This document shows, one piece after another, positions 2,839 through 22,888 of a DNA stretch of 24,000 nt. The stretch covers positions 124,158 through 148,157 of the forward strand of contig CAVUDO010000006.1 in assembly GCA_963740255.1 (NCBI GenBank), in the 5' to 3' direction. Within the stretch, counting starts at the first letter, position 1, and each line of letters begins with the position of its first letter. A model generated the notes under the pieces. It did no database searches and had not been told where the DNA came from. It saw only the letters and a list, made by a program, of their open reading frames with translations. A program made the position numbers and the translations under genes. Source of the DNA: an uncultured Actinomycetota bacterium. Its GTDB lineage: Bacteria; Actinomycetota; Actinomycetes; Mycobacteriales; Cryptosporangiaceae.

Positions 2839-4629
2839 ATGACGGCCACGCAGGAAAGAGGCGCCTCCAGCGGCGCCGACAAGACCAATCTTGTCGAGAT
2901 GAACTGGGACCCGGTGACCCGCATCGTGGGGAGCCTGGGCATCTACACCAAGATCGACTTCGCCCAGAAGAAGGTCGCCGAGTGTTACGCGACCTCTTCG
3001 ATCTTCCGCGGCTACAGCATCTTCATGAAGGGCAAGGACCCTCGGGACGCGCACTTCATCACGAGCCGGATCTGCGGGATCTGCGGCGACAACCACGCCA
3101 CCTGCTCGGTCTACAACCAGAACATGGCCTACGGTGTGCGCCCGCCGCACATCGCCGAGTGGATCATCAACCTCGGTGAGGCCGCCGAGTACATGTTCGA
3201 CCACAACATCTTCCAGGAGAACCTGGTCGGGGTGGACTACTGCGAGAAGATGATCTCGGAGACCAACCCCGGCGTCCTGGAACTGGCCAACCGCACCGAG
3301 TGCAACGGTGCCGCCGCCCATGGTTACAAGTACATCGGCGACATCATGCGCGCGCTCAATCCGTTCTCCGGTGAGTTCTACCGCGAGGCGCTCCAGGTCA
3401 GCCGGTACACGCGCGAGATGTTCTGCCTGATGGAGGGTCGCCACGTGCACCCCTCCACGCTCTACCCGGGCGGCGTCGGCACGGTCGCGTCGATCCAGCT
3501 GATCACCGACTACATGAGCCGCCTGATGCGGTACGTCGAGTTCATGAAGCGGGTCGTCCCGATGCACGACGACCTGTTCGACTTCATGTACCAGGCCCTT
3601 CCCGGCTACGAGATGGTCGGCTACCGCCGCACCCTCACCGCCTGCTGGGGAAGCCTGAACGACCCGGACTACTGCAACTTCGAGTACAAGGACATGACCG
3701 ACTGGGGACGCAAGATGTTCGTCACCCCCGGTGTGGTCGTGGACGGCCGGCTGGTCACCACCGACCTGGTGGAGATCAACCTGGGCATCCGCATCCTGCT
3801 CGGCAGTTCGTACTACCAGAGCTGGGAAGACCAGGAAATGTTCGTCACGCGCGACCCCCTGGGCAACCCGGTGCACCGCGACCACCCGTGGAACCAGACC
3901 ACGATCCCGGCCCCGCAGAAGCGGGACTTCGACGACAAGTACAGCTGGACGATGTCGCCGCGCTGGTTCGACGGCACCGACCACCTCGCCCTGGACACCG
4001 GCGGCGGCCCGCTCGCCCGACTCTGGCCGACGGCGCTCGCCGGCCTGGTGGACATCGGCTACGTGAAGTCGACCGGCCACAGCGTGCAGATCAACCTGCC
4101 GCGCACGGCCACCAAGCCCGAGGTCAGCTTCGAGTGGAAGATTCCCCAGTGGAGCAACGCGATCGAGCGTAACCGCGCCCGGACGTACTTCCAGGCCTAC
4201 GCGGCGGGGTGCGCGCTGCACTTCGTCGACAAGGCTCTGGAGGAGGTCCGTGCCGGCCACACCAAGACGTGGGAGTCGTTCAAGGTGCCGGACGAGGCCG
4301 TGAGCGTCGGCTTCACCGAGGCCGTGCGCGGCGTGCTGTCGCACCACATGGTCATCCGCGACGGCAAGATCGCCAACTACCACCCCTACCCGCCGACGCC
4401 CTGGAACGGCAGCGTGCGCGACAAGTTCGGTACGCCCGGCCCCTACGAGGACGCGGTGCAGAACACGCCGATCTTCGAGGAGAACCCGCCGGACAACTTC
4501 AAGGGCATCGACATCATGCGGGCGGTGCGCAGCTTCGACCCGTGCCTGCCGTGTGGTGTGCACATGTATCTCGGCGACGGGAAGGTCGTCGACAAGATGC
4601 ACTCTCCTTCCATGCTCAACCAGATCTGA
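2839..4629 (+). CDS. hhyL: [NiFe]-hydrogenase large subunit, group 1h/5 type
   Basis: 596 aa. N-terminal NiFe-ligand motif TSRICGICGDNHATCS and C-terminal motif SFDPCLPCGVHMY, followed by a 21-residue tail (MYLGDGKVVDKMHSPSMLNQI) that is the expected endopeptidase-cleaved extension. Confidence 0.97.
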   Translation: MTATQERGASSGADKTNLVEMNWDPVTRIVGSLGIYTKIDFAQKKVAECYATSSIFRGYSIFMKGKDPRDAHFITSRICGICGDNHATCSVYNQNMAYGVRPPHIAEWIINLGEAAEYMFDHNIFQENLVGVDYCEKMISETNPGVLELANRTECNGAAAHGYKYIGDIMRALNPFSGEFYREALQVSRYTREMFCLMEGRHVHPSTLYPGGVGTVASIQLITDYMSRLMRYVEFMKRVVPMHDDLFDFMYQALPGYEMVGYRRTLTACWGSLNDPDYCNFEYKDMTDWGRKMFVTPGVVVDGRLVTTDLVEINLGIRILLGSSYYQSWEDQEMFVTRDPLGNPVHRDHPWNQTTIPAPQKRDFDDKYSWTMSPRWFDGTDHLALDTGGGPLARLWPTALAGLVDIGYVKSTGHSVQINLPRTATKPEVSFEWKIPQWSNAIERNRARTYFQAYAAGCALHFVDKALEEVRAGHTKTWESFKVPDEAVSVGFTEAVRGVLSHHMVIRDGKIANYHPYPPTPWNGSVRDKFGTPGPYEDAVQNTPIFEENPPDNFKGIDIMRAVRSFDPCLPCGVHMYLGDGKVVDKMHSPSMLNQI

Positions 4630-4653: not shown

Positions 4654-5235
4654 GTGATGGCTGAAGACGCGCGGAGCGTGGGCGAGAAGATCGAGGCGCT
4701 GCTGGACGACGTCGGTCAGACGGGTGACACCGTCGCGGCCGAGGCCAGCGCCGAACTCGCCCGGCTGCTGATGGAGTTCTACGGTGCCGGGCTGGCCCGG
4801 GTGGTGGACCTCCTGCGCGAAAGCGGCGATCACGGCGAGGAAGTGTTGATGAAGCTGGCTGGCGACGGTCTGGTCGCCAGCCAGCTCATCCTCCACGGGC
4901 TCCACCCGCAGGACACCGAGACCAGGGTGCTGGCCGCACTGGAGAAGGTGCGTCCCTTCCTCGGCTCGCACGCCGGCGGGGTGGAGTACCTGGGGATCGA
5001 CGACGAGCTGGTCGTACACCTGCGGCTGCAGGGCAGCTGCGACGGCTGCCCGTCCTCGGCGTTGACCGTGAAGATGTCGATCGAGAAGCAGATCGGCAAC
5101 GACGCCCCCGAGATCGCCCGGGTGGACGTCGAGAACGTCACCGAGGCCAAGCCCGCGGGCGGGCTCCTGCAGATCGGGTCCAAGCCGCCGCTCGAGCAGT
5201 GGAGCGAGCCGTGCCCGGTTCCGGCGGCACTGTGA
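4654..5235 (+). CDS. hhyE: NifU-like iron-sulfur protein associated with the hydrogenase
   Basis: Start is GTG 4654 or ATG 4657, after a GAGAGG SD. The C-terminal NifU-type module reads VRPFLGSHAGGVEYLGIDDELVVHLRLQGSCDGCPSSALTVKMSIEKQI (CxxC). The symbol is assigned from its position directly after hhyL and its domain type, from memory of the mycobacterial Hhy locus. Confidence 0.8.
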   Translation: MMAEDARSVGEKIEALLDDVGQTGDTVAAEASAELARLLMEFYGAGLARVVDLLRESGDHGEEVLMKLAGDGLVASQLILHGLHPQDTETRVLAALEKVRPFLGSHAGGVEYLGIDDELVVHLRLQGSCDGCPSSALTVKMSIEKQIGNDAPEIARVDVENVTEAKPAGGLLQIGSKPPLEQWSEPCPVPAAL

Positions 5236-6041
5236 CCTCGACCTCCGGCGACACCTCGACCTCCAGCAGTGCGGTGACGTCGGGTGACGCCGTAACCTCG
5301 GGTGCCCCCGGCACGGCGGGAGCCGCCCCGATGGCGGGCGCCGCGGTGCCACCGGGTGCCGCACCGGGCGGCACGGGGAGCCCGAACGCGATCCTGCGCC
5401 GGCTGCTCACTCCGAAGCCCGCGCCGAAGATGGGCGAGCGCTGCGAGATGTGCGGCGAGATGCTCGCCGAGAAGCACGGGCACGTCGTGCACCTGGAGAA
5501 CCGCGCGCTGATGTGCGCGTGCCGGCCGTGCTCGCTGCTGTTCACCAACAAGGGCGCCGGCAGCGGCCGGTACCGGATGGTGCCCGAGCGCGTCCTGCAC
5601 GACCCGGACTTCGCGTTCACCGACGTGCAGTGGGGCGAGCTGCAGATCCCGGTGCGGATGGCCTTCTTCTTCAACAACTCCGACGCCGAACGGGTGGTGG
5701 CGTTCTACCCCAGCCCGGCCGGCGCCACCGAGAGCGAACTCTCGCTGGATTCGTGGGACTCCACGCTCGGCGCCAGCCCGATCGCCCGGGAGCTCGAACC
5801 CGACGTGGAGGCGCTGCTGATCTGGCGGATCGGCGACACCTACGACTGCCTGCTGGTGCCCATCGACTCGTGCTACCACCTGGTCGGCCTGGTGCGGCTG
5901 CACTGGAAGGGCTTCGACGGCGGCACCGAGGCGTGGGAACACATCGAGGCCTACTTCGCCACGCTCCGCGACCGCAGCGCACCGCTGCCGCCGCGGGCGG
6001 ACGATCCGGCCCCCCCGGCCGGTCCAGCGGACGGTGGTTGA
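5211..6041 (+). CDS. Conserved hydrogenase-cluster protein of unknown function (DUF5947-like; probably what the literature calls hhaA)
   Basis: Track ORF 5199..6041. GTG 5211 is preferred because a GGAGCGAG SD ends 2 nt before it; 5199 and ATG 5331 are alternatives. It overlaps the hhyE 3' end. There is a low-complexity T/S/G/A/P N-terminus, then a Cys cluster CEMCGEMLAEKHGHVVHLENRALMCACRPCSLLF. High third-position G/C runs throughout. Confidence 0.75.
   Translation: MPGSGGTVTSTSGDTSTSSSAVTSGDAVTSGAPGTAGAAPMAGAAVPPGAAPGGTGSPNAILRRLLTPKPAPKMGERCEMCGEMLAEKHGHVVHLENRALMCACRPCSLLFTNKGAGSGRYRMVPERVLHDPDFAFTDVQWGELQIPVRMAFFFNNSDAERVVAFYPSPAGATESELSLDSWDSTLGASPIARELEPDVEALLIWRIGDTYDCLLVPIDSCYHLVGLVRLHWKGFDGGTEAWEHIEAYFATLRDRSAPLPPRADDPAPPAGPADGG
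5232..5303 (+). repeat. Four imperfect 18-bp (hexapeptide) tandem repeats inside the 5' end of the DUF5947-like gene
   Basis: ACCTCGACCTCC occurs exactly twice (5235..5246 and 5253..5264). GTGACGTCGGGTG and GTAACCTCGGGTG follow with the same 18-bp period. The encoded peptides are VTSTSG, DTSTSS, SAVTSG and DAVTSG. Confidence 0.6.
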
Positions 6042-6042
6042 G

Positions 6043-6684
6043 ATGTCCTCGGCGCTCTCGTTCTCCTGTACCGGAGCGCGACCCGAGCAGTACGCGTCCA
6101 GCCCCACGATGATCTTCGACCTCAAGATCAAGGAGAGTTCCGGCGTCCGGGTGCACACCGCGCTGCTCCGGGCCCAGCTCCGGATCGAGCCGCACCGCCG
6201 CCGGTACTCCGCCGAGGAGGCGGCGGGCGTCGACGACATCTTCGGCGAGGTGTCGCGGTGGGGCGAGACGCTCAAGCCGATGCAGCTGGCGATGGCCAAC
6301 ATCCAGACGCCGTCGTTCACCACCGAGATCGACGTTCCGCTGCCGGTCTCGTTCTCCTACGACATCGAGGTCGCGTCCAACAAGTACCTGCACTCGATGA
6401 AGGACGGCGAGATCCCGATCCTGATCCTGTTCAGCGGCTCGGTGTTCTACCAGACCGAGAACGGTGTGCAGATCGACCCGGTCGCCTGGCACGAGGAGGC
6501 GAACTTCCGCCTGCCGGTGGCCACCTGGCGGCAGATGATGGACCTGCACTTCCCTGGCCAGAGCTGGATCCAGATGCGCGTGGACACCGTCGACAAGCTC
6601 CGCCGGTACCGCGCCAAGGAAGCCGACCTGACCTGGGACCACACGATCGAGCGGCTGCTCAAGGCCGCGGGTGAGCCGACATGA
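6043..6684 (+). CDS. Conserved hydrogenase-cluster protein of unknown function (DUF6084-like; probably hhaB)
   Basis: Track ORF 6034..6684. ATG 6043 lies 1 nt after the upstream TGA (6039..6041); GTG 6034 is an alternative. The protein starts MSSALSFSCTGARPEQYASSPTMIFDLKIKESSGVRVHTALLRAQLRIEPHRRRY. It has good coding bias and no motif I can assign to a function. Confidence 0.75.
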   Translation: MSSALSFSCTGARPEQYASSPTMIFDLKIKESSGVRVHTALLRAQLRIEPHRRRYSAEEAAGVDDIFGEVSRWGETLKPMQLAMANIQTPSFTTEIDVPLPVSFSYDIEVASNKYLHSMKDGEIPILILFSGSVFYQTENGVQIDPVAWHEEANFRLPVATWRQMMDLHFPGQSWIQMRVDTVDKLRRYRAKEADLTWDHTIERLLKAAGEPT

Positions 6685-8324
6685 CCGCCGACGCCGACGT
6701 CACCCGCGCGGGCATGACCAGTGCCGAGGTGACCAGTGCCGACGGCGTCATGGCCGACCTCACCGCGGCATTGGACGAGGTCAACCAGATCGCCGACACG
6801 GTGCTGCTGGAGGGCTACCTGCTCTACCCGTACCGCGCGTCCGCCCAGAAGAACCAGCTGCGCTGGCAGTTCGGGGTGCTGGCGCCGCGGTCGTACGCCG
6901 AGCAGTCCAGCGAGAACTGGTACACCCGCACCGAGTGCCTGCTCGAACCCGGCGAGAACGCGGTCGTCCAGGTGCGGATGCGGTTTCTGCACCAGCAGAA
7001 GCGGGCCGTGGAGAAGGCCGTCGGGCCCGACGAGTTCGCGCACACCGACGAGCTGGCCGTCGACAACCGCCTGATGAGCGCCTGGGACGAGGGTGTGCCC
7101 GAGCAGGTGGACATCGCGGTGCCGCTGGCGTCGCTGCTCGCCGGCGAGCACGTCGAGCCGTTCGACCGGCCCGCCACCGAGACCGTCGAGCTGGTCACCG
7201 ACACCGAAGGTGTGGTGCACGGCCGCCTGGTGCGGACGTGTTCGCCGGTCACCGGCGTCATCCGGATGTCGGCGTCCCCCGTCGACGGGCCGTACGGCGC
7301 GGTACGGGTGCGGGTCGTGGTCGAGAACACCACCGAGTACGCCCCGGCCGACGCCGACCCGCAGCAGCGCAGCCGGGACGCGGCCATCCCCGCCTCGCTG
7401 ATCGCCGCGCACACGATCCTGGCCGTCTCGGCCGGCTCGTTCGTCTCCACGGTCGACCCGCCGGAGTGGGCCAGGGCCGCCAGCGCCGACAACGCGAACG
7501 AGAACACCTGGCCCGTGCTGGCCGGCCCCGAGGGCCGCAGCGACCTGATCCTGTCCTCGCCGATCATCCTGCCCGAGCATCCGCAGGTGGCGCCGGAGAG
7601 CCCGACCAACCTCTTCGACGGCTGCGAGATCGACGAGATCCTCAGCCTGCGGACGCTCACCCTGACCGACCGGGAGAAGGCCGAGGCCCGCGGCACGGAT
7701 GCCCGGGCCGCCTCGATCATCGACGGCATCGACAACATGCCGCCGGAGGTGTTCGAACGGCTGCACGGCGCGATCCGGTACCTGGAGGGCACACCCGGCC
7801 AGCAGGCCGCCGCCGGCCCGACTGCCGCCGGCCCGCCGGCCACGTCGACCGGCGCCCAGGCGGCGAATCCGTTCGGCGACCCGTTCACCCAGCCGCTGCC
7901 CGGCATGCCGATGTACACCGCCGACGGCGAGGTGACCGCGCCGGTGCCGGGTGCGGTGCCGGCCGCCCGCGACCCGTTCGCCGACCCGCTGCTGCCCGGT
8001 GTGCCGACGTTCACGGAGGTCAACGACGCGCCGTGGTGGGATGAGGCCAAGGAGGCCGCGGTCTCGCCGGAGACCGACACGATCCTGGTCGGAGGCGTCG
8101 AGGTGGGCAGGGGCACCCGGGTGATCCTGCACCCGGGCGGTCGTACCGACGCCCAGGACATCTTCCTGATCGGACAGTCCGCCACCGTCGAGTCGGTCAT
8201 CCACGACGTGGACGGCCAGATCCACCTCGCGGTCTCGATCGACGCCGACCCCGCCCGGGACATCCAGTCCTCGCACGGCCGGTTCCGGTACTTCCGCCCG
8301 GAAGAGGTCGAGGTGGCGCGATGA
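6681..8324 (+). CDS. Conserved hydrogenase-cluster protein of unknown function (probably hhaC), 547 aa
   Basis: ATGA overlap with the upstream stop (6681..6684). Conserved-looking N-terminal block LLEGYLLYPYRASAQKNQLRWQFGVLAP. A Pro/Ala-rich linker at about 7790..8040 leads to a compact C-terminal domain of about 85 aa (TILVGGVEVGRGTRVILHPGG...RFRYFRPEEVEV). Confidence 0.75.
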   Translation: MTADADVTRAGMTSAEVTSADGVMADLTAALDEVNQIADTVLLEGYLLYPYRASAQKNQLRWQFGVLAPRSYAEQSSENWYTRTECLLEPGENAVVQVRMRFLHQQKRAVEKAVGPDEFAHTDELAVDNRLMSAWDEGVPEQVDIAVPLASLLAGEHVEPFDRPATETVELVTDTEGVVHGRLVRTCSPVTGVIRMSASPVDGPYGAVRVRVVVENTTEYAPADADPQQRSRDAAIPASLIAAHTILAVSAGSFVSTVDPPEWARAASADNANENTWPVLAGPEGRSDLILSSPIILPEHPQVAPESPTNLFDGCEIDEILSLRTLTLTDREKAEARGTDARAASIIDGIDNMPPEVFERLHGAIRYLEGTPGQQAAAGPTAAGPPATSTGAQAANPFGDPFTQPLPGMPMYTADGEVTAPVPGAVPAARDPFADPLLPGVPTFTEVNDAPWWDEAKEAAVSPETDTILVGGVEVGRGTRVILHPGGRTDAQDIFLIGQSATVESVIHDVDGQIHLAVSIDADPARDIQSSHGRFRYFRPEEVEVAR

Positions 8325-9019
8325 CCGCCGGGACCCCCGGGACCCCCGACACCGGTGTGCGGACGCCGCCGAAGATCCTGGTCGCGGGCGTCGGCAACAT
8401 CTTCTTCTCCGACGACGCGTTCGGTGTCGAGGTGGCCGGCAAGCTCGCCCGCGAAACGCTGCCCGCCGGCGTCCAGGTGCTCGACATCGGCATCCGCGGC
8501 GTCCACCTGGCCTACCAGCTGCTCGACGGCTACGACGTGCTGATCCTGGTCGACACCACTCAGCGCGGCGGCCCGCCGGGCACCCTGTACGTGATCGAGC
8601 CCGACATGGCCCGGACCGACAACCCGGACCCGGGGATCGAGCGCCCGCTGGTCGACGTCCACGGCATGGAGCCCGACACGGTCTTCGCCCTGCTCGGCTC
8701 GCTGCGGCGCGGCGTCGGCATGGAGGACAGCTCGGTCGGGCGGATCCTCGTGGTCGGCTGCGAGCCCTCGTGCATGGACGAGGGCATGGGACTCACACCG
8801 GAGGTGGAGGCAGCGGTCGACGGCGCGGTGCGGACCGTCGTCGATCTCGTGAAGGAATTGCAGACCGAGACAGGGAAAGGAGACTCCGATGCTGAAACGA
8901 TTCGTGTTGGGCGCGCTGCTCGTGGGCGTGGCGACGGTAGTGGTGCAGTCGCTGCCGGACGTGGCGCGGTACCTCAAGATCCGGGAGATGTGACGGCCGA
9001 GGTCGGAGGCGCGCGATGA
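8321..9019 (+). CDS. hupD: [NiFe]-hydrogenase maturation endopeptidase (HupD/HyaD/HybD family)
   Basis: ATGA overlap with the upstream stop. Core sequence KILVAGVGNIFFSDDAFGVEVAGKL...VLDIGIRGVHLAYQLLDGYDVLILVDTT...VDVHGMEP carries the family's Asp/Asp/His metal-ligand pattern. The frame stays open to TGA 9017..9019, but from about 8888 it loses coding bias (see findings). Confidence 0.85.
   Translation: MTAGTPGTPDTGVRTPPKILVAGVGNIFFSDDAFGVEVAGKLARETLPAGVQVLDIGIRGVHLAYQLLDGYDVLILVDTTQRGGPPGTLYVIEPDMARTDNPDPGIERPLVDVHGMEPDTVFALLGSLRRGVGMEDSSVGRILVVGCEPSCMDEGMGLTPEVEAAVDGAVRTVVDLVKELQTETGKGDSDAETIRVGRAARGRGDGSGAVAAGRGAVPQDPGDVTAEVGGAR
8889..8993 (+). CDS. 34-aa single-helix membrane peptide (sORF, absent from the ORF track)
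   Basis: ATG 8889 is preceded by a GGAAAGGAGA SD (8874..8883). Translation: MLKRFVLGALLVGVATVVVQSLPDVARYLKIREM, stop TGA 8991..8993. By hand count, 3 of 34 codons end in A/T, against 25 of 43 in the overlapping hupD frame. Confidence 0.55.
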   Translation: MLKRFVLGALLVGVATVVVQSLPDVARYLKIREM

Positions 9020-9531
9020 CGCGCTTCACGGTGGTGCCGGAACGCTCGGTGCTGACCGCCGAGGCCCGTTCGAACGTGCACCCGATCCACGGCGAGGGCC
9101 GCGGGCTGACCGGCTACGTCGACGTCGACGTGGTCGACGGCCGGATCGACCCCGCGTCCAAGCCGACGGTCCACATCGAGCTGCAGACCGAGGACCTGAA
9201 GGCGGAGAACTCGCTCTATGACCGCGAGATCCAGAAGCGGATCAACGCGCGCAGGTACCCGACCATCCGTGGCGAGGTCCGCGAGGTGCGGGAGACCTCG
9301 CCGGGCCAGTACGACGTGGCCGGGGAGCTGTCCTTCAACGGCGCCACCCGGGCTGTGGACGGCACGGCCCGGGTGTCCGTGGTCGACGACCGGACGCTGC
9401 AGGTGGACGGCGATCTCACCGTCGACATCCGCGACTTCGGCCTCGAGCCGCCGAAGATCCTGATGCTCAAGGTGTTCCCCGACGTGGCGATTCACGTGAA
9501 CCTCGTCGCCGAGCGCGAAGGCGGAGACTGA
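9016..9531 (+). CDS. YceI-like (polyisoprenoid/lipid-binding beta-barrel) protein
   Basis: ATG 9016 overlaps the hupD stop (ATGA) and follows a GGAGG SD (9005..9009). The YceI-like layout is: SVLTAEARSNVHPIHGEGRGLTGYVDVD...; ENSLYDREIQKRINARRYPTIRGEV; YDVAGELSFNGATRAV; VDIRDFGLEPP...DVAIHVNLVAE. Confidence 0.8.
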   Translation: MTRFTVVPERSVLTAEARSNVHPIHGEGRGLTGYVDVDVVDGRIDPASKPTVHIELQTEDLKAENSLYDREIQKRINARRYPTIRGEVREVRETSPGQYDVAGELSFNGATRAVDGTARVSVVDDRTLQVDGDLTVDIRDFGLEPPKILMLKVFPDVAIHVNLVAEREGGD

Positions 9532-9588
9532 GCCTGAACCCAGTGAGTTCTGAGCGGGACGATGTACGTGGAAGGAAGTGGTCTTCAA

Positions 9589-9840
9589 ATGGGCGCGCTG
9601 GCAGGTTTCCTGCTCGGCTACTGGCTGGGCACCAAGGCCGGTAAGCACGGCATCGAAGAGATGATCACGGCGGGCAAGCAGATCGCCAAGTCCGACGAAT
9701 TCAAGTCCGCTGTTGCCGGTGCCACCCAGATGGCCGGCAGCATGCTCTCGGCCGGCGCCTCGATGGCGGCGGGCCGGCTCGGCGGCGGAGCGCACGAGGC
9801 ACCGGCAGGGAACGGCCGCGCGAGCATGCGGGCCGTGTAA
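9589..9840 (+). CDS. Small Gly/Ala-rich protein with hydrophobic N-terminus (83 aa), unknown function
   Basis: Track ORF 9562..9840. The first 9 codons have poor third-position G/C, so I start at ATG 9589, with a GGAAGGAAG SD 10 nt upstream. The protein is MGALAGFLLGYWLGTKAGKHGIEEMITAGKQIAKSDEFKSAVAGATQMAGSMLSAGASMAAGRLGGG. The stop is TAA. Confidence 0.55.
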   Translation: MGALAGFLLGYWLGTKAGKHGIEEMITAGKQIAKSDEFKSAVAGATQMAGSMLSAGASMAAGRLGGGAHEAPAGNGRASMRAV

Positions 9841-9859
9841 GTCTTGTTCTCGACGGTGG

Positions 9860-9885
9860 CGGCAGCGGCTGGAAAGTCGCTGCCG
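9860..9885 (+). other. GC-rich stem-loop between the small protein gene and hypC
   Basis: CGGCAGCG (9860..9867) pairs perfectly with CGCTGCCG (9878..9885) around a 10-nt loop GCTGGAAAGT. There is no U-tract, so it is not a canonical intrinsic terminator. Confidence 0.25.
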
Positions 9886-9963
9886 GCGCCGGGCCACCAC
9901 GGGCCACACGGAGCACGCCGGAACCCGGCACCATGCTCGACCTGACGGAAAGGAGACCCCCTC

Positions 9964-10236
9964 ATGTGCCTCGGGATTCCCGGCGAACTCGTCGAGCGGA
10001 GCTTGGAACACAAGGACCTCGCGATGGTGGACGTGGCGGGCGCCAAGCGGATGGTGAACATCGGCCTGCTGGAGGACGAGGAACTCAACGAAGGCGACTG
10101 GGTGCTGATCCACGTCGGATTCGCTCTCTCCAAGATCGACGAGAAAGAGGCGCAGCACGCCTTGAAGATGCTCGAAGGCATGGGCCAGGCCTACACCGAC
10201 GAGCTGATCGCACTGGCCAAGTCCGACATCGTCTAG
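9964..10236 (+). CDS. hypC: Hydrogenase maturation chaperone HypC
   Basis: Begins MCLGIPGELVE, with the essential Cys at position 2, and contains GDWVLIHVGFALSKIDEKEA. An AAAGGAGA SD lies upstream. Confidence 0.95.
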   Translation: MCLGIPGELVERSLEHKDLAMVDVAGAKRMVNIGLLEDEELNEGDWVLIHVGFALSKIDEKEAQHALKMLEGMGQAYTDELIALAKSDIV

Positions 10237-10293
10237 CACCAGACGTTCCAGTCAGTCCGTTGACGGCCCCACACAGCGAGGAGGTGGTCGGGA

Positions 10294-11421
10294 ATGCGTT
10301 TCGTCGATGAGTTCCGCGACGCCGAGAAGGCGCGCGTGCTTTCACACCGGATTGCCGAGCTCTGCGAGCCGGGCCGGCACTACAAGTTCATGGAGGTGTG
10401 CGGCGGGCACACCCACACGATCTACAAGCACGGGCTCGAGGACTACCTGCCCGAGCAGGTGACGCTGGTGCACGGCCCCGGCTGCCCGGTGTGCGTGATC
10501 CCGATGGGCCGGGTGGACGACGCGATCGCCATCGCCGAGGAGCCGGACGTCATCATGACCTCGTTCGGCGACATGATGCGGGTGCCGGGCGGGCGCGGGT
10601 CGTTCTTCGACTCGATGGCCAACGGCGCCGACATCCGGATGGTGTACTCCCCGCTGGACGCCCTGAAGATCGCGCGGAACAACCCGAACAAGAAGGTCGT
10701 CTTCATGGCGATCGGGTTCGAGACCACCGCGCCGTCCACCGCGATGACCGTGATGCGGGCGAAGGCCGAGGGACTGGAGAACTTCTCGATCTTCTGCAAC
10801 CACGTCACGATCATCCCGGCGATCAAGGCCATCCTCGACTCGCCCGACCTGCGGCTGGACGGCTTCCTCGGCCCTGGCCACGTGTCCACCGTGATCGGCT
10901 GCCGGCCGTACGAGTTCATCGCGCGCGACCACGGCAAGCCGCTGGTCACCGCCGGCTTCGAGCCGCTGGACATCCTGCAGTCGGTGTACATGCTGCTCAT
11001 GCAGCTCAAGGAGGGCCGTTCCGAGGTCGAGAACCAGTACGCCCGGGTGGTGCCGTGGGACGGCAACCCCAAGGCGCTCGAGGTGATCGCCGAGGTGATG
11101 GAACTGCGGCCCTACTTCGAGTGGCGCGGGCTCGGCTTCATCTCCCACTCCGCGCTGCGGATGAACGACGCCCACGCGTCCTTCGACGCCGAGAAGATTT
11201 TCTCGGTGCCCGGGGTGCGGGTCGCCGACCCCAAGGCGTGCCAGTGCGGCGAGGTGCTCAAGGGCGTCCTCAAGCCGTGGGAGTGCAAGGTGTTCGGCAC
11301 GGCGTGCACGCCCGAGACCCCGATCGGCACCTGCATGGTGTCCTCGGAGGGCGCGTGCGCCGCGTACTACAACTTCGGCCGCTTCAGCCGGGAGCGCGTC
11401 AAGGAGGCGACCCGCACGTGA
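10294..11421 (+). CDS. hypD: Hydrogenase maturation protein HypD
   Basis: 375 aa with motifs FMEVCGGHTHTIYKHG, HGPGCPVCV and GFETTAP, and a C-terminal Cys cluster CQCGEVLKG...C. A GAGGAGG SD lies upstream. Confidence 0.97.
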   Translation: MRFVDEFRDAEKARVLSHRIAELCEPGRHYKFMEVCGGHTHTIYKHGLEDYLPEQVTLVHGPGCPVCVIPMGRVDDAIAIAEEPDVIMTSFGDMMRVPGGRGSFFDSMANGADIRMVYSPLDALKIARNNPNKKVVFMAIGFETTAPSTAMTVMRAKAEGLENFSIFCNHVTIIPAIKAILDSPDLRLDGFLGPGHVSTVIGCRPYEFIARDHGKPLVTAGFEPLDILQSVYMLLMQLKEGRSEVENQYARVVPWDGNPKALEVIAEVMELRPYFEWRGLGFISHSALRMNDAHASFDAEKIFSVPGVRVADPKACQCGEVLKGVLKPWECKVFGTACTPETPIGTCMVSSEGACAAYYNFGRFSRERVKEATRT

Positions 11422-12656
11422 CGGATCGGGTCGCCCGGACGCCGGTGGATGTCGCGATCGAAAGGCGAGGGACCGTGAACCTCGAGCAGGAGCAGAAGGA
11501 GACCACCGCGGCCTGGGCCGAGGAGGCCGTGACCGAGTCCGAGCAGGACGAGGACGGGCCGCACCACCACATCGGGCAGGAGCACCGCACCCGCGAGCAG
11601 CAGGTGCTCGACCGGATCGACCGGGCCCGCCGGCGCAAGCCCCGGGTCAAGGAAGAACGCATCACGCTGTCGCACGGGGCGGGCGGTAAGGCCACTCACA
11701 CCCTGATCGACGCGATCTTCCTGGAGGCGTTCCGCAACGAGCAGCTGGAGCAGATGGAGGACGGCGCGACGCTCAGCATCGGCGGTGCCAGGTTGGCTTT
11801 CACCACGGACTCCTACGTGGTCTCGCCGCTGTTCTTCCCCGGCGGCGACATCGGCGACCTGGCGGTGAACGGCACGGTCAACGACCTCGCCGTGTGCGGT
11901 GCCCGGCCGCTGTACCTGTCCTGCGGCTTCATCCTGGAGGAGGGGTTCGAGGTCGCGAAGCTGCGGCAGATCACCGACTCGATGGCGGCCGCGGCCAGGG
12001 CGGCCGGAGTGCAGATCGTCACCGGCGACACGAAGGTCGTGCAGCAGGGCAAGGGCGACGGCTGCTACATCAACACCGCCGGCGTCGGCCTGCTCGACCG
12101 GCCGACCCCGCTCAGTGCCGCGTCGGTCAAGCCGGGGGACAAGATCCTGGTGTCGGGTCCGATCGGCGACCACGGCATCACGATCCTGCTGGCCCGGGGC
12201 GAGCTGGACATCGTCGCCGACATCGAGTCCGACACCGCGCCGATGCACGAGCTGATCGCGGGGCTGCTCGACGCGGTGCCCGGTGTGCGGACGCTGCGCG
12301 ACGCGACCCGGGGCGGCGTGGCCACCATCCTCAACGAGGTGGCGGTGGCGTCCCAGGTCGCGGTGGTGGTGGACGAGGCCGCCGTGCCGGTACGCGCCGA
12401 GGTCAACGGCGCCTGCGAACTGCTCGGCATCGACCCGCTCTACGTCGCCTGCGAGGGACGGCTGGTCGCGATCGTGGACGGCTCGATGGTCGACGACGCG
12501 CTGGCCGCGCTCAAGGCGCATCCGCTCGGCGAGGGAGCCGCGGTGATCGGCACGATCAAGGACGACCCGCCCGGGCTGGTGCTGCTCAAGACCACGTTCG
12601 GGGGCACCCGGATCGTCGACATGCTCGTCGGCGACCCGCTACCGCGGATCTGCTGA
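11418..12656 (+). CDS. hypE: Hydrogenase maturation protein HypE (carbamoyl dehydratase) with an unusual N-terminal extension
   Basis: GTG 11418 overlaps the hypD stop (GTGA) and follows an AAGGAGG SD (11401..11407); GTG 11475 and GTG 11604 are alternatives. The conserved core starts at ITLSHGAGGKATHTLIDAIFLEAF (11661) and ends with the canonical PLPRIC C-terminus. Confidence 0.93.
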   Translation: MTDRVARTPVDVAIERRGTVNLEQEQKETTAAWAEEAVTESEQDEDGPHHHIGQEHRTREQQVLDRIDRARRRKPRVKEERITLSHGAGGKATHTLIDAIFLEAFRNEQLEQMEDGATLSIGGARLAFTTDSYVVSPLFFPGGDIGDLAVNGTVNDLAVCGARPLYLSCGFILEEGFEVAKLRQITDSMAAAARAAGVQIVTGDTKVVQQGKGDGCYINTAGVGLLDRPTPLSAASVKPGDKILVSGPIGDHGITILLARGELDIVADIESDTAPMHELIAGLLDAVPGVRTLRDATRGGVATILNEVAVASQVAVVVDEAAVPVRAEVNGACELLGIDPLYVACEGRLVAIVDGSMVDDALAALKAHPLGEGAAVIGTIKDDPPGLVLLKTTFGGTRIVDMLVGDPLPRIC

Positions 12657-12678: not shown

Positions 12679-13164
12679 ATGTCCTCTACCGAGTTCTTGA
12701 GCACCTACCTCAACGACCACCTCGCCGGGTCATCCGCCGCGGTCGAGATGATCGAGAGAAGCTGTGGGCGCAACGCCGGCACCCCGACCGGGGACTTCCT
12801 GGCGGAGCTGCTGCGCGACGTCGAAGCCGACCGGGCCACGCTGCGGAGCCTGATGAAGCGGCTCGGCGTCGAGGAGAGCATGTTCAAGCAGTTCGCCGGC
12901 GCCGCGCTGGAGAAGGCGAGCCGGCTCAAGCTCGCCGAGCCGATCACCGGCAGCCCGCACCTGACCCGGCTGATGGAGCTGGAGACGGTCTTCCTCGGCG
13001 TCGAGGGCAAGCACGCGTTGTGGCGGACGCTCAAGGCGCTGTCGGACGACGATCCGCGGCTGGCCGAGACCGACCTGGAGGGCCTGATCGACCGGGCCGA
13101 CCACCAGCTCGCCGGCATCGAGAAGCACCGGATCGAAGCCGCCGTCGCCGCTTTCACCGCCTGA
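12679..13164 (+). CDS. Helical protein of unknown function (161 aa), last gene of the + strand operon
   Basis: A GGAGG SD lies 6 nt upstream of the ATG, 22 nt after the hypE stop. The protein is MSSTEFLSTYLNDHLAGSSAAVEMIERSCGRNAGTPTGDFLAELLRDVEADRATLRSLMKRLGV.... It has good coding bias and I recognise no family. Confidence 0.7.
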   Translation: MSSTEFLSTYLNDHLAGSSAAVEMIERSCGRNAGTPTGDFLAELLRDVEADRATLRSLMKRLGVEESMFKQFAGAALEKASRLKLAEPITGSPHLTRLMELETVFLGVEGKHALWRTLKALSDDDPRLAETDLEGLIDRADHQLAGIEKHRIEAAVAAFTA

Positions 13165-22237: not shown

Positions 22238-22647
22238 GCCTGTTCGCGCTCCTCCAGCTCTGGTTCGGCCACATCGGCACCGGACACGCCCGCGTACCGC
22301 TTGAGGAAGTCCTCGATCATGTCGCGGGTGGCCTCCAGGGCGCAGGCCCGGCCTTTCAGGCTCTCCAGGCCCCGCGCGGTGAGGTGGTACGTCCGCCGTG
22401 CCGGCCCGGCGGTGGACATCCGCCACGACGACACGACGAGCCCCTGGTGCTCCAGTGCCCGCAGGGCGCGGTACACCCCACCGGCGTCGATCTCGGATCC
22501 GGCGAAGGCGCGGAGTCGGTCGACGAGGTCATAGCCGTGGTCCGGCCGCTCGTAGATGAGCAGCAGGAGACACGGCTTGAGAAAATCTCGTGGCTCGTAC
22601 TCGAGCATCGACACGCCTTTGTGTGGACGCGACAGGGGGAGATCCAT
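22234..22647 (-). CDS. PadR-family transcriptional regulator
   Basis: Winged-helix core LKPCLLLLIYERPDHGYDLVDRLRAF...GGVYRALRALEHQGLVVSSW...RRTYHLTARG. Start ATG 22647 follows a GAGGA SD 4 nt upstream; ATG 22608 (AAAGG SD) is an alternative. The upstream part of track ORF 22234..22755 is not needed. Confidence 0.85.
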   Translation of the reverse strand: MDLPLSRPHKGVSMLEYEPRDFLKPCLLLLIYERPDHGYDLVDRLRAFAGSEIDAGGVYRALRALEHQGLVVSSWRMSTAGPARRTYHLTARGLESLKGRACALEATRDMIEDFLKRYAGVSGADVAEPELEEREQA

Positions 22648-22888
22648 TCGATCCTCGCACCCGGACCTACCCCAGACAAGGCCGTACACGGCCCGTCGCT
22701 CCGCCACATTCGTCCTGGATGCGACATAGCCGACCAGTCGATCCCGACGTCGCACGTTCGTCCTCGCCGCCGCGCACCAGCACCCTCAGCGGTCTCGGGA
22801 GTTCATCCGACAGCACGTGCCCGGCGAGAATGCCGGGCGCTCGCCGGGGCCTTTCGGCGGACCCGGCCGGCTCTCCTATCGTCGGGGA
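22648..22888. promoter_or_regulatory. Divergent intergenic region between padR and the GNAT gene
   Basis: Contains an inverted repeat GCCGT-AC-ACGGC (22681..22692) and a 12-bp direct repeat CACATTCGTCCT (22705..22716) / CACGTTCGTCCT (22753..22764) with 11 of 12 bases identical. Confidence 0.35.

What the first reader, a model, noticed from the sequence alone, without database searches (positions are those of the whole stretch)
9016..9840. YceI-like lipid-binding protein plus a small hydrophobic-headed protein embedded in the hydrogenase operon: a possible quinone or membrane link
YceI-family proteins are lipocalin-like barrels known to bind polyisoprenoid chains. Here one is start-stop coupled to hupD, sits upstream of hypCDE and has no signal peptide. 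An 83-aa Gly/Ala-rich protein with a hydrophobic N-terminus (GALAGFLLGYWLG) follows it. Group 1h enzymes are cytosolic or membrane-associated and must pass electrons to the (mena)quinone pool, and the adaptor for Hhy-type enzymes is not established. My inference is that this pair may shuttle or present an isoprenoid quinone, or tether the enzyme to the membrane.
Basis: inference. Interest (0 to 1): 0.6.

Follow-up and report, generated by a model that had tools for sequence, protein, structure and literature searches.

The report
Optional lipid-barrel cassette in hydrogenase operon
A leaderless YceI-type lipid-binding barrel and a small glycine-zipper protein really are encoded inside this air-hydrogen-scavenging hydrogenase operon and recur there in one branch of such operons, but only about one in ten such operons has them, so they are an optional extra (probably a menaquinone or isoprenoid binder), not the enzyme's general link to the membrane.

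Summary
Both genes are real. ORF 9016-9531 is a YceI-family protein (Pfam 48 bits; AlphaFold pLDDT 91; TM 0.82 to the polyisoprenoid-binding TT1927b) with no signal peptide. ORF 9589-9840 belongs to a conserved family of about 75-90 aa that has no family or structure match. It has an N-terminal glycine zipper that is too short to be a classical membrane helix.

The true upstream neighbour is a 34-aa DUF6893 membrane peptide (8889-8993). The hupD/YceI ATGA overlap exists only because hupD's frame runs on through that peptide.

Of 48 genomes of the phylum that carry a 1h-type HhyL, 5 have this YceI, always between DUF6893 and hypA/hypC. The closest HhyL relatives lack it. The link is still not chance: 57 of 79 nearest relatives lie in 1h loci, the carriers fall in one HhyL subclade, and Acidimicrobiia add a PadR::YceI fusion beside hhyS.

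Best reading: an optional isoprenoid/menaquinone-binding accessory of Hhy. The universal-adaptor idea is rejected. Ligand and role are untested.

This scan noted the same motif before on other DNA (40 notes, at least 27 genomes). The paper library held no relevant paper with both YceI and NiFe.

The parts
8321..9019 (+). hupD-type hydrogenase maturation endopeptidase. The catalytic domain ends near 8880. The last ~45 codons of the open frame look non-coding and overlap the next gene.
   Evidence: Pfam HycI and TIGR00072. GC3 in this frame falls from ~1.0 to 0.33-0.5 after 8840. Relatives' hupD is ~169 aa and stops before DUF6893.
8889..8993 (+). 34-aa DUF6893 single-helix membrane peptide, the true upstream neighbour of the YceI gene
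   Evidence: Pfam PF21833 E 3.1e-14, 53 bits. RBS GGAAAGGAGA. KD(19) 2.07. Found in the same place in many 1h loci.
9016..9531 (+). Leaderless YceI-family lipocalin-like barrel (171 aa) with the subfamily motif HPIHGE
   Evidence: Same slot in L004, L006, L034, L035, L058 and about 55 further loci.
9589..9840 (+). 83-aa helical small protein: glycine-zipper head (G2, G6, G10, G14, G18), conserved S-(D/E)-E-(F/V) motif, disordered tail. Alternative start at 9562.
   Evidence: No Pfam, NCBIfam or PDB relative.
9854..9891 (+). Stable RNA hairpin in the 124-base spacer between the small gene and hypC (perfect 8-bp core at 9860-9867 / 9878-9885)
   Evidence: Fold of 9838-9966: -64.1 kcal/mol against -49.5 +/- 3.9 for shuffles, z -3.76. 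No T-run follows, and the terminator scan found nothing on this strand.
9964..10236 (+). hypC, the first of hypCDE. In relatives hypA lies between the cassette and hypC; here hypA is on another contig.

Best explanation
The YceI gene and the small gene after it form an optional cassette added to the group 1h (Hhy) hydrogenase operon in one branch of these operons. It sits between the DUF6893 membrane peptide and the hyp maturation genes. The YceI protein is a soluble cytoplasmic eight-stranded barrel with an apolar interior. It most likely holds a long isoprenoid lipid, and in this organism the obvious candidate is menaquinone or menaquinol, which is Hhy's ultimate electron acceptor. Made together with the enzyme, it would hold or present that lipid near a hydrogenase that has no cytochrome b or membrane subunit. 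The glycine-zipper small protein would be its helical partner. Shown here: the family and fold, the cytoplasmic location, the conserved slot, inheritance alongside HhyL in one subclade, and the pairing with the small protein. Inferred: the ligand, any contact with Hhy, and any effect on electron transfer. The cassette is dispensable for Hhy function in general, because most Hhy operons lack it.
For: Family and fold. The strands have one apolar, more conserved face (mean KD +1.71) and one polar face (-1.98). No export signal. Same slot in metagenomic and genomic loci whose YceI is only 42-52% identical. 57 of 79 nearest relatives from species-representative genomes lie in 1h loci, and the other 22 share no common neighbour. 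The stand-alone proteins form one clade (100/98) with the non-hydrogenase copies nested inside it. On the HhyL tree all carriers fall in one subclade (95), including 26 of 26 Acidimicrobiia rows. The small protein was found only in loci that also have a YceI: 0 of 33 YceI-less 1h loci, and it occurs next to YceI genes of both clades and in a duplicated pair in L004. YceI relatives bind octaprenyl chains, menaquinone and ubiquinone-8 (PMC5350466). The genome has two MqnA/MqnD-type genes, so its quinone is probably menaquinone. The electron route from Hhy to menaquinone is unresolved (PMC6883350).
Against: Only 5 of 48 1h-bearing genomes in the phylum sample carry it, and the nearest HhyL relatives and all deeper HhyL clades do not. 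It lies in the maturation half of the operon, not beside hhySL. About a quarter of its closest relatives are outside hydrogenase loci. One locus has YceI without the small protein (L058), and in 16 loci the small gene sits between hypC and hypD instead. The octaprenyl ligands in crystal structures may be purification artefacts (PMC5350466). No ligand, interaction or expression data could be obtained.
Confidence: 0.45

Rival explanations
1. Regulatory role: the barrel senses or buffers a lipophilic signal (for example the redox state of the quinone pool) and acts with a PadR-type regulator of the hydrogenase genes.
For: Acidimicrobiia 1h loci carry, divergent from hhyS, a PadR DNA-binding domain fused to a YceI domain (Pfam PadR E 7e-15 plus YceI E 1e-11). 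The window has a stand-alone PadR at about 22291-22593 (- strand) that is 40% identical to that PadR domain (E 5e-19). In L004 a second YceI/small pair follows a PAS sensor protein upstream of hhyS.
Against: The fused YceI domains form a separate clade (98/87) and lack the HPIHGE motif. Acidimicrobiia have both the fusion and the stand-alone protein, so the two are not simply interchangeable. The stand-alone gene sits inside the structural/maturation operon, which is unusual for a sensor.
Confidence: 0.2
2. Maturation or protection helper: the barrel assists aerobic assembly or stability of the enzyme, for instance by sequestering a hydrophobic or reactive compound, or by delivering an antioxidant quinone. 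It has no role in electron transfer.
For: The position is between the maturation protease and the hyp genes. Two nearly invariant histidines (H22, H25) mark the stand-alone clade. Bacterial lipocalins have been linked to stress and antioxidant roles (PMC5350466).
Against: No known maturation step needs a lipid carrier. Most 1h operons mature without it. H22 corresponds to a histidine I recall as generally conserved in the YceI family (from memory, not checked here).
Confidence: 0.12
3. Passenger: a general-purpose cytoplasmic lipocalin that happened to lodge in the operon and has no hydrogenase-specific role.
For: Patchy distribution. Nested copies occur outside hydrogenase loci, such as Sphaerisporangium at 50-52% identity.
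Against: The slot is fixed over deep divergence (YceI down to about 42% identity), the gene is kept in every Acidimicrobiia row of the HhyL tree, it occurs in two phylum-level groups (Actinomycetota and Binatota), and paralogues are recruited into the same loci.
Confidence: 0.1
4. Universal adaptor: this pair is the general, so far missing, link between group 1h enzymes and the quinone pool.
For: The same evidence as for the best explanation.
Against: Not found in 43 of 48 1h-bearing genomes searched whole. The slot holds only hypA, hypB or hypF there. In contrast, HhyE, DUF5947, DUF6084 and the 547-aa protein are in every locus.
Confidence: 0.03

Closest known systems
TT1927b, polyisoprenoid-binding protein of Thermus thermophilus (PDB 1WUB)
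   Same: Best fold match (TM 0.82, E 4e-11) and best profile match (E 1e-6). Similar length. Aligns from the N-terminus, so it also appears to lack a leader.
   Different: Only 18% identical. No hydrogenase context is known from the papers searched. It lacks the second histidine of the HPIHGE motif in the profile alignment.
BcnA/BcnB of Burkholderia cenocepacia (5IXH, 5IXG), PA0423 of Pseudomonas aeruginosa (7BWL) and E. coli YceI (1Y0G): bacterial lipocalins
   Same: Same barrel (TM 0.73-0.80). BcnA binds menaquinone and tocopherol with high affinity and crystallised with octaprenyl pyrophosphate (PMC5350466).
   Different: BcnA is produced and released by the cell and captures antibiotics extracellularly (PMC5350466); from general knowledge the others are exported too. 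The window's protein is cytoplasmic and operonic with a hydrogenase.
Neisseria meningitidis GNA1030, a ubiquinone-8-binding YceI protein (cited in PMC5350466)
   Same: Precedent for a YceI barrel holding a respiratory quinone.
   Different: Known to me only through that citation. It was proposed to deliver ubiquinone-8 to the membrane or periplasmic space, and binds ubiquinone, not menaquinone. It was not compared by sequence here.
HucM of the group 2a hydrogenase Huc (Mycobacterium smegmatis; PMC10017518)
   Same: What the cassette may work like: a non-catalytic subunit giving a soluble, high-affinity, O2-insensitive hydrogenase a hydrophobic chamber that brings menaquinone to the enzyme.
   Different: HucM is a helical coiled-coil tube and scaffold, not a barrel. 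No homology is claimed or tested. HucM is required for the Huc oligomer, whereas the YceI cassette is optional among Hhy operons.
HhyE (NifU-like) and MSMEG_2717/PHG067, the published candidate electron acceptors of Hhy (PMC6883350)
   Same: Encoded in the same operon. They address the same open question.
   Different: The window's NifU-like protein (4654-5235) and the DUF5947, DUF6084 and 547-aa proteins are present in all 38 loci examined, where the contig allows. The YceI cassette is not.

Membership tests
YceI family (Pfam PF04264) | Match to the family model above the curated threshold, over the full length | tested here: met
   48.0 bits against 23.7, profile positions 2-150 of 150. All homologues carry PF04264.
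YceI family (Pfam PF04264) | Extended eight-stranded lipocalin-like beta-barrel | tested here: met
   AlphaFold2 pLDDT 91.3. The top 20 Foldseek PDB hits are all YceI structures, TM 0.68-0.82.
YceI family (Pfam PF04264) | Apolar tunnel inside the barrel | tested here: inconclusive
   Proxy only: alternate residues of the predicted strands give one apolar, conserved face (KD +1.71) and one polar face (-1.98).
YceI family (Pfam PF04264) | Bound polyisoprenoid or quinone ligand | not testable with these tools
   Needs purification and LC-MS, or docking on coordinates.
Exported YceI/Bcn lipocalins (E. coli YceI, BcnA type) | N-terminal signal peptide | tested here: not met
   A strand begins at residue 2, and the most hydrophobic 19-residue window is at the C-terminal strand, not the N-terminus.
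Core gene set of group 1h hydrogenase operons | Present in essentially every 1h locus | tested here: not met
   5 of 48 1h-bearing genomes. The HMM search of 38 fetched loci confirms it. The core genes are in all of them.
DUF6893 (PF21833), for the 34-aa ORF at 8889-8993 | Match above threshold and position after hupD | tested here: met
   53.2 bits against 24.6. Same position in L004, L006 and L020-L025.
Any described small-protein family for the 83-aa protein (YtxH-like was the resemblance I had in mind) | Match to a curated model or a solved structure | tested here: not met
   No Pfam or NCBIfam family is significant for any of six members. Profile against PDB: best E 0.18. The model is low-confidence (pLDDT 60).
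Single-pass membrane anchors, for the 83-aa protein | Hydrophobic helix of about 19 or more residues | tested here: not met
   The uncharged run is a constant 15 residues. KD over the first 19 residues is 0.66 in the window and 0.1-1.7 across the family. DUF6893 scores 2.07.

The most novel reading that the evidence does not exclude
DUF6893 (membrane helix), the leaderless YceI barrel and the glycine-zipper small protein together form a menaquinone hand-over and docking device for the soluble Hhy enzyme in one branch of 1h operons. It would be a non-homologous counterpart of HucM. The PadR::YceI fusions beside hhyS would use the same barrel to read the quinone pool and set hydrogenase expression.
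Probability: 0.15. Interest if true: 0.8.

Novelty: new variant of a known kind. Interest (0 to 1): 0.45.

Why it matters
How group 1h hydrogenases, the main biological sink for atmospheric H2, pass electrons to the respiratory chain is unresolved (PMC6883350). For the group 2a enzyme the answer was a dedicated menaquinone-carrying subunit (PMC10017518). A cytoplasmic quinone-type lipid barrel kept inside one large branch of 1h operons, with a paralogue fused to a DNA-binding domain next door, gives concrete and cheap-to-test candidates for lipid delivery and for regulation of this enzyme. Because the cassette is optional, it cannot be the general mechanism. At best it shows one lineage's solution, or an add-on. 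Searching the paper library for YceI together with NiFe returned two papers, both on enterobacterial gene expression and neither about this association.

Tried and rejected
2. The word-based homologue search with the 83-aa protein found only one near-identical protein. Homologues were recovered with an HMM on fetched loci instead.
3. Pfam, NCBIfam and PDB profile searches for the small protein found nothing. Its AlphaFold model is too weak (pLDDT 60) for a fold search.
4. I looked for a common neighbour of the 22 YceI relatives outside hydrogenase loci. The largest shared cluster was 5 loci (a short-chain dehydrogenase), so there is no consistent partner.
5. I looked for an analogous lipid-binding gene in the same slot of YceI-less loci. 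Only hypA, hypB and hypF lie there.
6. My first guess for the window's PadR ORF (22356-22727, - strand) was the wrong frame. tblastn placed it at about 22291-22593.
7. No paralogue of the YceI gene exists elsewhere in this genome, so the window's genome has no PadR::YceI fusion.
8. The idea that the hupD/YceI ATGA overlap means translational coupling of those two genes was rejected.
Full report
**What is in the sequence.** The window (about 70% GC; contig 6 of a 3.69-Mb, 95.6%-complete genome) carries a group 1h-type [NiFe]-hydrogenase operon on the + strand. The gene order is:
- small subunit, 1614-2783
- large subunit, 2839-4629
- NifU-like protein, 4654-5235
- DUF5947, 5199-6041
- DUF6084, 6034-6684
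- a 547-aa protein with no family, 6681-8324
- hupD protease, 8321-9019
- the two genes of the finding
- hypC, hypD and hypE, 9964-12656

ORF 9016-9531 matches Pfam YceI over the whole profile (48 bits against a cut-off of 23.7). The only family NCBIfam lists for it is YceI, and sources name its homologues YceI or polyisoprenoid-binding protein.

The second ORF is best read from ATG 9589 (83 aa), which has GGAAGGAAG ten bases upstream. An in-frame ATG at 9562 is also open.

**A correction to the anatomy.** A sliding GC3 plot shows that the hupD frame stops looking like coding sequence after about 8840. Another frame takes over and holds a 34-aa ORF (8889-8993) with its own strong ribosome-binding site. 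That ORF is a DUF6893 small protein (E 3e-14) with a real membrane helix (KD 2.07).

In relatives hupD is about 169 aa and stops just before DUF6893. Here the hupD frame simply has no stop until 9019. The ATGA overlap with the YceI start is therefore real as letters, but it is not good evidence of hupD-YceI coupling. The YceI gene follows DUF6893 by 22 bases and has its own GGAGG.

**The YceI protein.** With an alignment of 43 homologues (A1), AlphaFold2 gives a confident model (pLDDT 91.3, pTM 0.83).
- Foldseek against the PDB returns only YceI-family barrels in the top 20. The leaders are the polyisoprenoid-binding TT1927b (1WUB, TM 0.82), BcnA (5IXH, 0.80), PA0423 (7BWL) and E. coli YceI (1Y0G).
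- A profile search of PDB sequences finds the same proteins at E 1e-6 to 4e-4. It is therefore a distant but clear member of the family.
- The model begins with a strand at residue 2 and there is no hydrophobic N-terminal stretch, so the protein is cytoplasmic.
- Along the predicted strands, one face is apolar and more conserved (mean KD +1.71, conservation 0.72) and the other is polar (-1.98, 0.60). That fits a soluble barrel with an apolar interior. It is only a proxy, because I had no coordinates.
- Most of the nearly invariant residues (S11, H22, G33, D69, the Y-P pair, G-x-L-x-F-x-G-x-T, R-x-F) seem to me to correspond to the general YceI signature. That is a judgement from memory, not a comparison made here. 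The second histidine of HPIHGE and the PPKILMLKV segment appear to be specific to this clade.

**The small protein.** It has no Pfam or NCBIfam family, and a profile search of PDB sequences found no relative. Homologues are easy to find next to YceI genes, and 32 were aligned (A3).
- All have an uncharged N-terminal run of exactly about 15 residues with glycine at every fourth position.
- This is followed by G-x-(E/D)-G, a helix, a conserved S-(D/E)-E-(F/V) motif and a variable tail.
- The model is three helices at low confidence (pLDDT 60).
- Fifteen residues with a KD of 0.1-1.7 is short and weak for a transmembrane helix. An in-plane anchor or a helix-packing interface seems more likely than a tether. 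That is inference.

**How often it occurs in 1h loci (unbiased sample).** I searched 401 representative genomes of the phylum whole, with HhyL and with the YceI protein.
- HhyL identities split cleanly into 61% or more (48 genomes including this one) and 43% or less (other [NiFe] groups).
- Only five of the 48 have a strong YceI match: this genome, G059, G325, G267 and G122.
- I fetched 38 hhyL loci plus two continuation contigs and mapped all operon proteins. I then ran an HMM built from 60 YceI homologues on their six-frame ORFs.
- The core, from hhyS to hupD, is in every locus. YceI is only in the same few.
- In G059, G325 and G267 the YceI gene sits in one slot: DUF6893, YceI, (small protein), hypA, hypC. 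In G122 it lies at a contig edge followed directly by hypE, so its slot could not be confirmed.
- The loci with the most similar HhyL (84-87% identity, L020-L025) read DUF6893, hypA, hypC with no room for anything else.
- Where other loci have a larger gap, it holds hypA, hypB or hypF.

**How specific it is (sample anchored on YceI).** A scan of 185,579 species genomes with the YceI alignment gave more than 220 relatives, of which 79 loci were kept.
- 57 of the 79 lie in 1h loci and 22 do not. The 22 share no neighbour.
- Carriers are mostly Acidimicrobiia (Ilumatobacteraceae, Acidimicrobiaceae, Microthrixaceae). Others are Mycobacteriales and Streptomycetales MAGs, Egibacteraceae, Longispora, and Binatia or 'delta proteobacterium' MAGs.
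- On a YceI tree the stand-alone proteins form one clade (100/98, 84 rows), with the non-hydrogenase copies nested inside it. Some of those come from genomes that also have a slot copy.
- On an HhyL tree all carriers fall in one subclade (support 95; 42 with, 13 without). The label needs about six changes, and at least three are forced by well-supported branches. Thirteen rows in two deeper clades and a few more basal rows have none, while 26 of 26 Acidimicrobiia rows have it.
- These carrier rows were chosen by the feature, so the tree shows coherence, not frequency.

Taken together, the cassette is rare overall (about 10%), but it is inherited with the operon over long spans. That is hard to explain without a hydrogenase-related function.

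**Pairing with the small protein.**
- In the unbiased sample the small-protein HMM hits only loci that have YceI: none of 33 YceI-less loci at E below 0.1.
- Among the 57 hydrogenase-linked loci it is directly after the YceI gene in 13, between hypC and hypD in 16, and undetected in 27. Outside hydrogenase loci it is found in 2 of 20.
- L058 has YceI but only 48 bases before hypA.
- L004 has a second YceI/small pair upstream of hhyS, after a PAS protein.
- Several Acidimicrobiia loci have a small gene right after the other YceI clade.

The two families are linked, but not rigidly.

**PadR::YceI fusions.** Earlier scan notes pointed to PadR::YceI fusions, and I tested this. The divergent YceI hits upstream of hhyS in Acidimicrobiia loci are long ORFs with an N-terminal PadR domain (E 7e-15) and a C-terminal YceI domain (E 1e-11).
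- They form their own clade (98/87) and have GP(I/L)SFG where the stand-alone proteins have HPIHGE.
- The window has no such fusion. It does have a stand-alone PadR at about 22291-22593 that is 40% identical to the fused PadR domain.
- This shows that a YceI barrel is used as a ligand-binding module in the regulation of these operons. It keeps a regulatory role for the stand-alone protein alive as a rival.

**What is known.** Hhy has no cytochrome b subunit. Its route to menaquinone is unresolved, and the published candidates are HhyE and MSMEG_2717/PHG067 (PMC6883350); the window's NifU-like protein, presumably the HhyE counterpart, is in the universal core here. For the group 2a enzyme Huc, the helical subunit HucM builds a hydrophobic chamber and tube that carries menaquinone (PMC10017518). 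YceI-family lipocalins crystallise with octaprenyl chains, BcnA binds menaquinone with very high affinity, and GNA1030 binds ubiquinone-8. The authors caution that the crystallised lipids may be artefacts (PMC5350466). This genome has two MqnA/MqnD-type genes and no classical menA hit, so menaquinone made by the futalosine route is its likely quinone. Searching the library for YceI together with NiFe returned two papers, neither about this association, and I found no Hhy structure with partner proteins.

**Verdict.** A quinone- or isoprenoid-binding accessory tied to Hhy is the best reading (about 0.45). The idea that it is the adaptor of Hhy-type enzymes fails on distribution. The rivals are a regulatory ligand role (0.2), a maturation or protection role (0.12) and a passenger (0.1).

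The protein is a member of a known family in a new, recurrent context, with an undescribed partner family. I file it as a new variant of a known kind. The same motif has been noted repeatedly elsewhere in this scan (40 notes, at least 27 genomes).

Noticed in passing
window 8840-9019: The hupD frame has no stop until 9019, although its last ~45 codons look non-coding and overlap the DUF6893 ORF in another frame. Relatives' hupD stops before DUF6893. This is either a lost stop codon giving a junk tail or an assembly error.
   Followed up: partly
window 9854-9891 (within spacer 9841-9963): Very stable RNA hairpin between the small gene and hypC (fold z-score -3.76, no shuffle as stable) with no T-run after it. 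It could be an attenuator or an mRNA processing/stability element separating the hhy block from hypCDE.
   Followed up: partly
L086, L088, L089, L096, L107, L130, L131 (first ~1100 bases, - strand): PadR::YceI fusion genes divergent from hhyS in Acidimicrobiia 1h loci. The YceI domain forms its own clade and lacks the HPIHGE motif. They are candidate lipid- or quinone-responsive regulators of hhy.
   Followed up: partly
window about 22291-22593 (- strand): Stand-alone PadR gene next to the SIS / hypC-like / SIS / hypF genes. It is 53% identical to the PadR of L006 and 40% identical to the PadR domain of the fusions.
   Followed up: partly
window 9840-9964; G000:C5:167721-168041: hypA, which lies between the cassette and hypC in relatives, is missing from this locus. 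The only hypA in the genome is on another contig.
   Followed up: partly
L004:998-3082: A triple-PAS protein, a second YceI (181 aa) and a 99-aa relative of the small protein lie directly upstream of hhyS in a soil metagenome contig. The YceI/small pair is duplicated as a unit.
   Followed up: partly
L079, L084, L086, L088, L089, L097, L098, L100, L107, L109, L112, L117, L118, L122, L130, L131: In these Acidimicrobiia loci the small glycine-zipper gene sits between hypC and hypD rather than after the YceI gene.
   Followed up: no
window 6681-8324 and 12679-13164: The 547-aa protein has no Pfam or NCBIfam match but is present in every 1h locus examined. The 161-aa protein after hypE has no family either.
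   Followed up: no
L062, L063, L068 (Sphaerisporangium): YceI relatives at 50-52% identity lie outside any hydrogenase locus, next to an acyltransferase gene. They are nested within the hydrogenase-linked clade.
   Followed up: partly
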